Assembly: GCF_030013595.1 (NCBI RefSeq)
Contig: NZ_CP122768.1
Strand: one strand, 5' to 3'
Length of the DNA stretch: 64,000 nt
Source: Escherichia coli
GTDB lineage: Bacteria; Pseudomonadota; Gammaproteobacteria; Enterobacterales; Enterobacteriaceae
The notes beneath the pieces are model-generated. The model was not told the DNA's origin. It saw only the letters and a list, made by a program, of their open reading frames with translations, and did not search any database. The position numbers and the translations under genes were made by a program. Shown here in pieces: positions 23,588 through 27,235 of this stretch. Within the stretch, counting starts at the first letter, position 1, and each line of letters starts with the position of its first letter.

Positions 23588-25231
23588 ATGGAACTTCTTG
23601 TACTTGTCTGGCGGCAGTATCGCTGGCCATTTATCAGTGTGATGGCGCTAAGCCTCGCCAGTGCGGCTTTAGGCATTGGCTTAATTGCTTTTATCAATCA
23701 GCGCCTTATCGAAACGGCGGATACCAGTCTGCTGGTGTTGCCGGAGTTTCTGGGATTATTGCTGCTGTTGATGGCAGTCACTCTCGGATCGCAACTGGCG
23801 CTCACCACTTTGGGGCATCACTTCGTTTACCGACTGCGTAGTGAATTTATCAAGCGGATTCTCGATACTCACGTTGAGCGCATTGAACAACTCGGTAGCG
23901 CCTCGTTGCTGGCGGGATTAACCAGCGATGTGCGCAATATCACCATTGCTTTTGTGCGTCTGCCGGAACTGGTGCAGGGGATCATCCTCACTATCGGTTC
24001 CGCGGCGTACTTGTGGATGCTGTCGGGCAAAATGTTGCTGGTAACGGCTATCTGGATGGCAGTCACCATCTGGGGCGGTTTTATACTGGTGGCGCGGGTG
24101 TACAAACATATGGCGACCCTGCGTGAAACCGAAGATAAGCTGTACACGGATTTTCAAACCGTACTCGAAGGGCGCAAAGAGCTGACTCTGAACCGTGAAC
24201 GCGCCGAGTATGTGTTTAACAACCTCTACATTCCTGATGCGCAAGAATATCGCCATCATATTATCCGCGCAGACACCTTCCATCTTAGTGCCGTGAACTG
24301 GTCAAACATCATGATGCTGGGCGCAATCGGTCTGGTGTTCTGGATGGCGAACAGTCTCGGTTGGGCTGATACCAACGTTGCCGCGACCTATTCGTTGACG
24401 CTGTTATTCCTGCGTACGCCGCTGCTTTCGGCGGTTGGTGCATTACCGACGCTGCTGACGGCGCAGGTGGCGTTTAACAAGCTGAACAAATTCGCACTCG
24501 CGCCTTTCAAAGCAGAGTTTCCGCGCCCACAGGCGTTTCCCAACTGGCAAACGCTGGAGCTGCGTAACGTGACGTTTGCTTATCAGGATAACGCGTTTTC
24601 CGTTGGGCCGATTAACCTCACCATCAAACGTGGCGAGCTGCTGTTTCTGATTGGCGGCAACGGTAGCGGAAAATCGACGCTGGCGATGTTGCTGACGGGC
24701 TTGTATCAGCCACAAAGCGGCGAAATCTTGCTGGATGGCAACCCTGTCAGCGGCGAACAACCGGAAGATTATCGCAAACTGTTTTCGGCAGTGTTTACCG
24801 ATGTCTGGCTGTTCGATCAACTGTTGGGGCCGGAGGGTCAACCCGCTAACCCGCAACTGATTGAGAAGTGGCTGGTGCAGCTGAAAATGGCTCATAAGCT
24901 TGAGTTAAGCAACGGGCGTATTGTTAACCTGAAGTTATCAAAAGGGCAGAAAAAACGCGTCGCGCTGTTGCTGGCGCTGGCAGAAGAACGCGATATTATC
25001 CTGCTGGATGAATGGGCGGCGGATCAGGATCCACACTTCCGTCGTGAGTTTTATCAGGTGTTGCTGCCGCTGATGCAGGAGATGGGTAAAACTATTTTCG
25101 CCATCAGTCATGATGATCATTACTTTATCCACGCCGACCGCCTGCTGGAAATGCGCAACGGGCAACTTAGCGAGCTGACGGGCGAAGAGCGCGATGCCGC
25201 TTCGCGTGATGCTATTGCCCGGACGGCATAA
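23588..25231 (+). CDS. yojI: ABC transporter permease/ATPase YojI
   Basis: 547 aa fused TMD-NBD with Walker [10 protein letters not shown] and signature SKGQKKR. Confidence 0.9.
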
Positions 25232-25436
25232 TATTACGACGCTGACCTGGCGGACTGCTGCCGCCAGGTCAATATGCTAAAAATCCCTTCATTTCTAATA
25301 ACCCTATAATTAATCAACGAAATTATAATGTTTCTAAAATTAGAATATAATTTATAAACATTATTTAAATGTTGTTACTTAAGTGTTACCGTTGATGCCG
25401 CGCAAATCTCACCTGCAATAAAGCGACTAAAAGTAA

Positions 25437-27095
<1,659 letters not shown>

Positions 27096-27099
27096 TGAT

Positions 27100-27235
27100 A
27101 TGCCACATCCGGCATGGTATGCCGGATGTGGCTTATGCTGATAAGACGCGCCATCGTCGCATCAGTCAACCGGCTCGGGCGTTAGATGTCGGATGCGGCG
27201 TGACCGCCTTATCCGACCTACGGGGTGCCGCACTT
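27100..27235. repeat. hairpin plus REP/BIME element downstream of mqo
   Basis: gccacatccggcatggtatgccggatgtggc hairpin followed by gatgtcggatgcggcgtgaccgccttatccgacctac REP-like unit. Confidence 0.6.

What the first reader, a model, noticed from the sequence alone, without database searches (positions are those of the whole stretch)
25325..25374. AT-rich inverted repeat upstream of mqo
ATAATGTTT ... AAACATTAT arms flank a 32 bp AT-rich spacer about 75 bp upstream of the mqo start. It may be a regulator binding site.
Basis: seen in the sequence. Interest (0 to 1): 0.15.

Follow-up and report, generated by a model that had tools for sequence, protein, structure and literature searches.

The report
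Chance symmetry in known mqo promoter
The inverted repeat is real, but it sits in the AT-rich upstream half of the already mapped, ArcA-repressed E. coli mqo promoter, only its promoter-proximal arm is conserved in related genera, and it is most likely an incidental symmetry rather than a regulator's binding site.

Summary
The window is E. coli, with yojI followed by mqo, and it is identical to K-12 across the promoter. The repeat exists: ATAATGTTT at 25325-33 and AAACATTAT at 25356-64. The spacer is 22 bp, not 32. The repeat ends at 25364, not 25374. It lies 85 bp, not 75 bp, from the ATG. It extends to 14-nt arms (13 of 14 complementary, 12-bp gap).

A perfect 9-nt repeat appears in 6-11% of shuffles of this tract. 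The 14-nt form appears in 0.2-1%.

Published data place it. The mqo start site (Kim 2012) is window 25400, so the arms lie at -75 to -62 and -49 to -36. The ChIP-supported ArcA operator (Park 2013; mqo derepressed 31.8-fold in an arcA mutant) is 25361-25392 and overlaps the right arm by 4 bp.

Across 37 orthologous promoters, the right arm lies in a deeply conserved block. The left arm's informative TG (25329-30) is lost in Citrobacter and the Enterobacter group. No compensating change occurs and no repeat is conserved in position.

Best reading: part of a UP-element-like, H-NS-prone AT tract flanking the ArcA operator, with incidental symmetry. Low interest; already known.

The parts
25325..25338 (.). 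Left arm of the inverted repeat, ATAATGTTTCTAAA (perfect 9-nt core 25325-33); -75 to -62 from the mqo start site
   Evidence: Invariant within sampled Escherichia, but the TG at 25329-30 is lost in Citrobacter and the Enterobacter group.
25339..25350 (.). 12-bp central gap, ATTAGAATATAA
25351..25364 (.). Right arm, TTTATAAACATTAT (perfect 9-nt core 25356-64); -49 to -36. It lies inside a block conserved in all genera (T.TAAACA[A/T]TATTTAAA).
   Evidence: the 9-nt arm matches E. coli at 100% in Escherichia, 90% in Citrobacter and 86% in the Enterobacter group.
25341..25362 (+). UP-element-like A/T tract at the canonical -59 to -38 position (91% A+T)
   Evidence: 11 of 14 specified positions match NNAAAWWTWTTTTNNNAAANNN at exactly -59..-38. 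Function is inferred.
25364..25369 (+). Probable -35 hexamer TTTAAA (17-bp spacer to the -10)
   Evidence: My reading from the mapped start site. 87-100% conserved.
25361..25392 (+). Published three-repeat ArcA site, TTATTTAAATGTTGTTACTTAAGTGTTACCGT (-39 to -8)
   Evidence: Park 2013 Tables S4 and S6. Coordinates converted using the K-12 identity shown.
25372..25389 (+). Core ArcA box, TTGTTACTTAAGTGTTAC
   Evidence: 20.5 bits in Park 2013 Table S3. 20.6 bits with a matrix I rebuilt from 114 other boxes.
25384..25392 (+). Probable extended -10, TGT-TACCGT
   Evidence: Inferred from the start site at 25400. Overlapped by ArcA repeat 3.
25400..25400 (+). mqo transcription start site (G); 49-nt 5' UTR
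   Evidence: Kim 2012 supplementary table: start site at 2304825 on the minus strand, 10 reads, upstream 51-mer ending ...GATGCCG.
25449..27095 (+). mqo coding sequence (malate:quinone oxidoreductase, 548 aa)
23588..25231 (+). yojI coding sequence (microcin J25 efflux ABC transporter), the upstream neighbour

Best explanation
The repeat is an incidental symmetry inside the AT-rich upstream half (-75 to -36) of the sigma70 promoter of mqo. That promoter has a weak core: -35 TTTAAA, a 17-bp spacer and an extended -10 TGT-TACCGT.

I infer three roles for the ~90% A+T tract at -38 to -60. It acts as a UP-element-like contact for the RNA polymerase alpha C-terminal domains during aerobic expression. 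It is the DNA most likely responsible for the H-NS binding reported for this spacer. It also flanks the ArcA-P operator (-39 to -8), which shuts the promoter off anaerobically.

The right arm is conserved because it belongs to this promoter-proximal block: the UP-proximal subsite, the edge of the -35 and the weak first ArcA repeat. The left arm is Escherichia-specific sequence with no separate role as the partner of a palindrome.

Shown: the location, the start site, ArcA ChIP and regulation, and the conservation pattern. Inferred: the UP-element and H-NS roles and the hexamer assignments.
For: The window is E. coli and is identical to K-12 across 25272-25452. The start site at 25400 comes from Kim 2012. 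The ArcA site at -39..-8, the ChIP peak and the 31.8-fold derepression in the arcA mutant come from Park 2013. My independent matrix gives 20.6 bits for 25372-89.

The ArcA ChIP peak centres convert to window 25394 and 25404. That is 50-60 bp downstream of the repeat's centre at 25344.5.

The UP consensus matches 11 of 14 positions at exactly -59..-38. G+C is 12-23% across 25280-25400. Both a sigma70 holoenzyme SELEX peak and an H-NS SELEX site are reported in the yojI-mqo spacer.

Conservation: the right 9-nt arm matches E. coli at 100%, 90% and 86% in Escherichia, Citrobacter and the Enterobacter group. The left 9-nt arm matches at 100%, 74% and 23%. TG 25329-30 is lost while CA 25359-60 is kept. 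Other genera have different inverted repeats at other positions. A 9-nt repeat is expected in 6-11% of shuffles.
Against: The extended 14-nt form is uncommon in shuffles (0.2-1%). The single strand folds better than all 200 shuffles (z = -3.1). Both 9-nt arms are invariant in all sampled Escherichia species. Two lineages (L002, L036) carry C25334A, which makes the 14-nt arms perfect. The arm centres are 31 bp apart, about three helical turns, so they face the same side of the helix. None of the published binding data has the resolution to exclude a protein on the repeat. The UP-element and H-NS roles are untested for this promoter.
Confidence: 0.6

Rival explanations
1. Extended ArcA operator. 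Each arm begins ATGTTT(C/A)TAAA, a weak ArcA half-site (the consensus repeat is ATGTTAA). ArcA-P oligomers nucleated on the strong box at 25372-89 would spread upstream onto these convergent half-sites, strengthening anaerobic repression.
For: Half-site scores are 5.7 bits (25328-34, +) and 7.1 bits (25355-61, -). The corresponding 18-mers score 8.0 and 9.6 bits. The weakest accepted box in the part of Park's Table S3 that was read scores 9.1 bits. The left-arm TGTT (25329) lies 44 bp, which is 4 x 11 bp, upstream of the TGTTA of repeat 2 (25373), so it is in ArcA phase. Citrobacter carries a strong second ArcA box on the minus strand, up to 18.1 bits, aligned with window 25314-31 and overlapping the left arm's position.
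Against: 41% of composition-matched shuffles reach 9.6 bits. ArcA binds direct repeats, not inverted ones (Park 2013). Park's repeat-extension analysis stopped at three repeats, 25361-92. The ChIP peak centres lie on the mqo side of the box, away from the repeat. The E. coli sequence aligned with the Citrobacter box scores only 5.1 bits.
Confidence: 0.15
2. Operator for an unidentified regulator that binds as a dimer of dimers and is specific to Escherichia. It would recognise ATAATGTTT on the same helical face three turns apart.
For: 14-nt arms with 13 of 14 complementary, and perfect in L002 and L036. Rare in shuffles. The arms are invariant within Escherichia, and the 96-nt stretch 25300-25395 is identical in 4518 of 5421 E. 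coli genomes. The arm centres are 31 bp apart.
Against: No conservation of symmetry and no covariation outside Escherichia. The whole ~125-bp promoter is equally conserved within Escherichia, so arm invariance carries no specific information. There is no acceptable match to the IHF, Fis, CRP, FNR, Lrp, PhoP, NarL, Cra, RcsAB or Nac consensus. Only one weak 2-mismatch arm-like match occurs elsewhere in the 64-kb window, against 0.69 expected by chance. The held literature names no such regulator of mqo.
Confidence: 0.12
3. Weak Fur site. The arms contain the Fur hexamer unit (tATAATg and cATTATt), and Fur represses mqo directly.
For: Hou 2023 lists mqo as a new direct Fur target, with log2 fold change -1.74 (listed as Down) and a ChIP-seq peak upstream. 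The best match to the 19-bp Fur box is 12 of 19 at 25347-65.
Against: The ChIP enrichment is only 1.21-fold, against 19.3-fold upstream of yojI and 51.8-fold at cirA. The two hexamer-like units are 30 bp apart rather than adjacent as in a Fur box. A 12-of-19 match in 90% A+T DNA is weak.
Confidence: 0.05
4. Structural element: either a cruciform in supercoiled DNA or an RNA hairpin at the 3' end of yojI read-through transcripts.
For: The single strand folds to -7.4 kcal/mol, z = -3.1, and no shuffle of 200 folds as well.
Against: The stem is all A-T or A-U with an internal loop, which is very weak. The terminator scan finds nothing. A G+C-rich hairpin with compensatory changes already follows yojI at 25243-71. 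Rfam finds nothing above threshold. The stem is not conserved outside Escherichia.
Confidence: 0.04

Closest known systems
The ArcA-repressed mqo promoter of E. coli K-12 (start site from Kim et al. 2012; ArcA site from Park et al. 2013)
   Same: This is the same locus with identical sequence. The repeat occupies -75 to -36 of that promoter. Its last 4 bp are the first 4 bp of the published 32-bp ArcA site.
   Different: The published operator is three direct repeats at 11-bp spacing, downstream of the repeat. The papers read here that deal with this promoter (Park 2013, Kim 2012, Shimada 2014) do not mention the inverted repeat, and it is not needed to explain the known regulation.
UP elements (A/T-rich -40 to -60 alpha-CTD contact sites, e.g. 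rrnB P1; consensus from established knowledge, Estrem et al. 1998)
   Same: Position (-59 to -38), 91% A+T, and an 11-of-14 match to the consensus in the canonical register. It sits next to a weak core promoter that would benefit from it.
   Different: No alpha-CTD dependence has been measured for mqo. The left arm (-75 to -62) lies upstream of a canonical UP element.
H-NS-bound AT-rich promoter-upstream tracts
   Same: 10-23% G+C over about 100 bp. The spacer is flagged as containing an H-NS SELEX site.
   Different: Only 8 of 10 matches to the high-affinity TCGATAAATT motif. The SELEX-chip resolution covers the whole spacer. No hns-dependent regulation of mqo was found in the literature searched.
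Palindromic operators of dimeric repressors or activators (CRP, FNR, Fur type)
   Same: Two-fold symmetry, with arms on one face of the helix.
   Different: The arm spacing (22-bp spacer, 31 bp centre to centre) is far larger than in those families. No consensus match. The symmetry is not conserved in orthologous promoters.

Membership tests
ArcA operator (ArcA box) | Two or more direct repeats resembling TGTTA at 11-bp centre-to-centre spacing, scoring well above background with the ArcA matrix | tested here: not met
   For the repeat itself, the arms are inverted and 31 bp apart. The best 18-mers score 8.0 and 9.6 bits, a level reached by 41% of composition-matched shuffles. The adjacent 25372-89 does meet the criterion (20.6 bits), but it lies outside the repeat.
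ArcA operator (ArcA box) | ArcA occupancy in vivo and ArcA-dependent expression | tested here: inconclusive
   From the literature: a ChIP-chip/ChIP-seq peak at mqo and 31.8-fold derepression. The peak centres (window 25394 and 25404) lie 50-60 bp from the repeat's centre, and the resolution cannot assign or exclude the repeat.
UP element | A/T-rich sequence at -40 to -60 matching NNAAAWWTWTTTTNNNAAANNN | tested here: met
   11 of 14 positions match at exactly -59..-38 (25341-62), 91% A+T.
UP element | Stimulation of transcription that depends on the alpha C-terminal domain | not testable with these tools
   Needs in vitro transcription with alpha-CTD-truncated RNA polymerase.
Fur box | 19-bp palindrome GATAATGATAATCATTATC (adjacent inverted hexamers) | tested here: not met
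   The best match is 12 of 19. The ATAAT and ATTAT units of the arms are 30 bp apart. ChIP enrichment is 1.21-fold.
Palindromic operator of a dimeric regulator | Symmetry retained, or compensated, in orthologous promoters | tested here: not met
   TG 25329-30 matches E. coli at 23% and 8% in Citrobacter and at 0% in the Enterobacter group, while CA 25359-60 is 95-100% conserved. No inverted repeat is conserved in position outside Escherichia.
Intrinsic terminator | G+C-rich stem followed by a T-run | tested here: not met
   The scan found none. The stem is entirely A-T.
H-NS binding region | Extended AT-rich tract with demonstrated H-NS binding | tested here: inconclusive
   The composition criterion is met. 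Binding is reported only at spacer level by genomic SELEX. The high-affinity motif matches 8 of 10.
Known RNA families (Rfam 15) | Match at or above the family's gathering score | tested here: not met
   There are only two sub-threshold matches (23 bits against gathering scores of 45-49) in 25150-25550.

The most novel reading that the evidence does not exclude
The 40-bp palindrome is an Escherichia-specific operator. It would bind either an unidentified regulator or ArcA-P in an unusual convergent half-site arrangement. It would have been created when a 6-bp self-complementary flip (AACATT in Citrobacter, AATGTT in Escherichia) re-oriented a half-site of what is a strong second ArcA box in Citrobacter.
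Probability: 0.1. Interest if true: 0.3.

Novelty: already known. Interest (0 to 1): 0.1.

Why it matters
It matters little. mqo regulation by ArcA is well documented, and the repeat adds no demonstrated layer to it. The useful result is negative and precise. The real operator is the direct-repeat ArcA site immediately downstream. The repeat lies in the UP-like AT tract, and its symmetry is not conserved.

If the minority reading were true, it would give a small example of promoter rewiring between Escherichia and Citrobacter by re-orientation of a response-regulator half-site.

Tried and rejected
- **Consensus scans.** I scanned 25270-25420 for IHF, Fis, CRP, FNR, Fur, Lrp, H-NS, PhoP, NarL, Cra, RcsAB and Nac motifs. 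Only weak matches typical of AT-rich DNA appeared.
- **ArcA matrix.** Scanning the arms gave chance-level scores.
- **Rfam.** Nothing above threshold in the intergenic region.
- **Terminator scan.** No hits.
- **FnrS duplex.** A full-length FnrS-mqo duplexfold was uninformative, because shuffled controls gave the same energy.
- **Second start-site dataset.** The Thomason 2015 paper is not held. The stored Cappable-seq supplements do not contain the region. The K. pneumoniae start site for KPN_02629 is not in the stored part of the Kim 2012 supplements.
- **Literature searches.** Searches for mqo with ChIP-exo, SELEX, H-NS, ChIP-seq and regulon found no regulator other than ArcA, Fur (weak) and H-NS (spacer level).
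- **Shimada 2014 promoter.** TTGATG-16-TGCAAT (25392-97 and 25414-19) is a best-sequence-match assignment within a SELEX peak, not a mapped start. If it is used, the repeat sits at about -101 to -62 and the conclusion does not change.
- **The 41-bp-spaced direct repeat** (25305-32 and 25346-73, 75% identity). I judged it a likely chance match in AT-rich DNA.
- **One empty script call**.

Full report
**1. What is in the sequence**

The window around the finding is the E. coli yojI-mqo intergenic region. yojI is 23588-25231 (+) and mqo is 25449-27095 (+). The 217-bp spacer differs from K-12 MG1655 at a single base, at about 25264 in the yojI hairpin, so K-12 data transfer directly.

The arms are present as spelled: ATAATGTTT at 25325-33 and AAACATTAT at 25356-64.
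- The spacer is 22 bp, not 32.
- The repeat ends at 25364, not 25374.
- It ends 85 bp, not about 75 bp, before the ATG.

The symmetry extends inward to 14-nt arms, ATAATGTTTCTAAA at 25325-38 and TTTATAAACATTAT at 25351-64. These are 13 of 14 complementary with a 12-bp gap. The 40 bp are 10% G+C. They lie in a tract of 12-23% G+C spanning about 25280-25400.

**2. Is it more than chance?**

| Repeat class | 217-bp spacer shuffles | 116-bp AT core shuffles |
|---|---|---|
| Perfect 9-nt, spacer <=40 | 5.9% | 11.2% |
| 14-nt, <=1 mismatch | 0.18% | 1.0% |

These figures come from dinucleotide-preserving shuffles. The whole window has 32 perfect >=9-nt inverted repeats and 9 distinct repeats of the 14-nt class; several of the latter are G+C-richer hairpins. 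As single-stranded DNA the segment folds to -7.4 kcal/mol (z = -3.1). The reported 9-nt repeat is therefore unremarkable. The extended form is modestly unusual but was selected post hoc.

**3. Where it sits relative to mapped features**

- **Start site.** Kim et al. 2012 (PMC3415461, supplementary table) map the mqo start site at 2304825 in U00096.2 (minus strand, 10 reads, 49-nt 5' UTR). The upstream 51-mer ends ...GTTACCGTTGATGCCG. This is window 25400.
- **Arm positions.** The arms lie at -75..-62 and -49..-36.
- **ArcA.** Park et al. 2013 (PMC3798270, Tables S1, S3-S6) report an ArcA ChIP-chip/ChIP-seq peak at mqo and an 18-bp ArcA box, ttgttacttaagtgttac, scoring 20.5 bits. They also report a three-direct-repeat site, TTATTTAAATGTTGTTACTTAAGTGTTACCGT, at -39 to -8, lower anaerobic sigma70 occupancy, and 31.8-fold higher mqo expression in an arcA mutant.
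- **Conversion.** In window coordinates the site is 25361-25392. It shares only 25361-64 with the right arm.
- **Independent score.** A matrix rebuilt from 114 other Park boxes scores 25372-89 at 20.6 bits.
- **Peak centres.** The ChIP peak centres convert to 25394 and 25404, which is 50-60 bp on the mqo side of the repeat's centre.
- **Core promoter (my reading).** From the start site I read -35 TTTAAA (25364-69), a 17-bp spacer and an extended -10 TGT-TACCGT (25384-92). This is an inference.
- **SELEX.** Shimada et al. 2014 (PMC3946193) found sigma70 holoenzyme binding in this spacer by genomic SELEX and flag an H-NS site in it. Their proposed TTGATG-16-TGCAAT (25392-97 and 25414-19) is a best sequence match, not a mapped start.

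**4. Conservation**

A scan of one genome per species with Mqo returned orthologous loci from Escherichia (4), Citrobacter (13) and Enterobacter, Lelliottia, Leclercia and relatives (20). I aligned the 260 nt upstream of the ATG and measured identity to the E. coli base:

| Segment | Escherichia | Citrobacter | Enterobacter group |
|---|---|---|---|
| Left 9-nt arm | 1.00 | 0.74 | 0.23 |
| Right 9-nt arm | 1.00 | 0.90 | 0.86 |
| -35 TTTAAA | 1.00 | 0.87 | 0.99 |
| ArcA box | 0.99 | 0.91 | 0.43 |

The low ArcA-box figure in the Enterobacter group reflects an 11-bp difference equal to one TGTTAC repeat.

The decisive positions are the only G/C-bearing pairs of the repeat. T25329 and G25330 match E. 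coli at 0.23 and 0.08 in Citrobacter and at 0 in the Enterobacter group. Their partners C25359 and A25360 are 0.95-1.00 everywhere. T25361 is Escherichia-specific, because most other genera have AAACAATAT. There is therefore no covariation.

A search for the best inverted repeats in each orthologue finds the E. coli repeat only in Escherichia. Other genera have different 10-14-nt repeats at other positions in the same AT tract. This shows how readily such symmetries arise in this kind of DNA.

Within E. coli, the 96 nt at 25300-25395 are identical in 4518 of 5421 complete genomes. Sampled variants fall outside the 9-nt arms. The whole promoter is equally conserved within the genus, so this says nothing specific about the repeat. 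Two lineages (L002, L036) carry C25334A, which makes the 14-nt arms perfect.

**5. What might bind**

- **ArcA.** Each arm starts with an ArcA-like half-site (ATGTTTC on +, 5.7 bits; ATGTTTA on -, 7.1 bits). The corresponding 18-mers score 8.0 and 9.6 bits. However, 41% of composition-matched shuffles do as well, and ArcA uses direct repeats.
- **Citrobacter second box.** The Citrobacter freundii complex has a strong second ArcA box on the minus strand, ATGTTATTAATACGTTGA, up to 18.1 bits. It aligns with window 25314-31, where E. coli scores 5.1 bits. The difference includes AACATT (Citrobacter) against AATGTT (Escherichia), which is a self-reverse-complementary flip made by two substitutions. 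In those genera mqo is preceded by a divergent SulP-family gene rather than by the 3' end of yojI. The box may therefore serve that gene.
- **Fur.** Hou et al. 2023 (PMC10219339) call mqo a new direct Fur target. The upstream ChIP-seq enrichment is only 1.21-fold, against 19.3-fold upstream of yojI. The best Fur-box match is 12 of 19.
- **Other consensus motifs.** IHF, Fis, CRP, FNR, Lrp, PhoP, NarL, Cra, RcsAB and Nac give nothing convincing.
- **UP element.** The UP consensus matches 11 of 14 positions at exactly -59..-38.
- **RNA and terminators.** Rfam and the terminator scan are negative.

**6. Conclusion**

The best-supported reading (confidence about 0.6) is as follows. The repeat is an incidental symmetry within the AT-rich, UP-element-like and H-NS-prone upstream half of the known ArcA-repressed mqo promoter. 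Its right arm is conserved because it belongs to the promoter-proximal block. Its left arm is lineage-specific.

The rivals, with approximate confidence:
- spread of ArcA-P onto convergent weak half-sites (0.15);
- an unidentified Escherichia-specific regulator (0.12);
- a weak Fur site (0.05);
- a structural element (0.04).

It is not supported in that the palindrome shows no sign of being the recognition unit. Novelty is nil for the locus, and interest is low.

Noticed in passing
window 25243-25271: A G+C-rich hairpin lies 12 nt after the yojI stop codon (TGACCTGGCGG / CCGCCAGGTCA, 11-bp stem, 7-nt loop, no T-run). Escherichia relatives show compensatory changes: L002 has TAACC...GGTTA, E. 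albertii has CTGGTGG...CCACCAG, and K-12 has a G.T wobble. It is probably the yojI 3'-end or terminator structure.
   Followed up: partly
window 25409-25417 (+10 to +18 of the mqo 5' UTR) and 25433-25439: The block TCACCTGCA is 97-100% conserved from Escherichia to the Enterobacter group, more than the surrounding UTR. TCACCTGC is the exact complement of nt 1-8 of FnrS (GCAGGTGA). AAGTAAG at the Shine-Dalgarno sequence complements FnrS CTTACTT. mqo is listed among putative FnrS targets (predicted or previously reported) in PMC10993149. The chance expectation for an 8-mer match is about 0.13, so this is only suggestive.
   Followed up: partly
L009 2356-2373 (Citrobacter werkmanii), aligned with window 25314-25331: The Citrobacter freundii complex carries a strong second ArcA box on the minus strand (ATGTTATTAATACGTTGA, up to 18.1 bits) that E. 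coli lacks (5.1 bits). Escherichia has AATGTT where Citrobacter has AACATT, a 6-bp self-reverse-complementary flip.
   Followed up: partly
L009 978-2222 (-) and 38-1015 (+); similar in Enterobacter loci: Outside Escherichia, mqo is preceded by a divergently transcribed SulP-family transporter gene and an mgtE-like gene instead of the 3' end of yojI. The ancestral intergenic region was therefore a divergent promoter region. Sequence homology with E. coli starts near window 25293.
   Followed up: partly
window 25379-25389 versus Enterobacter-group loci (L014-L038): The Enterobacter group lacks 11 bp, equal to one TGTTAC repeat of the ArcA box. This would shift the -35 by one helical turn onto the other TTTAAA of the conserved block.
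   Followed up: no
window 27098-27136: An 18-nt-arm hairpin (ATATGCCACATCCGGCAT / ATGCCGGATGTGGCTTAT, 3-nt loop) lies directly after the mqo stop codon. It is probably the mqo terminator or a REP-like element.
   Followed up: no
upstream of yojI (about window 23500, not examined): Hou 2023 reports a strong Fur ChIP-seq peak (19.3-fold) upstream of yojI, far stronger than the 1.21-fold signal upstream of mqo.
   Followed up: no
L086 (E. coli P276M, NZ_CP044293.1): One complete genome shows only 83.5% identity over the 96-nt promoter segment, with clustered substitutions and indels. This is out of line with 5420 other genomes and may be an assembly-quality artefact.
   Followed up: no
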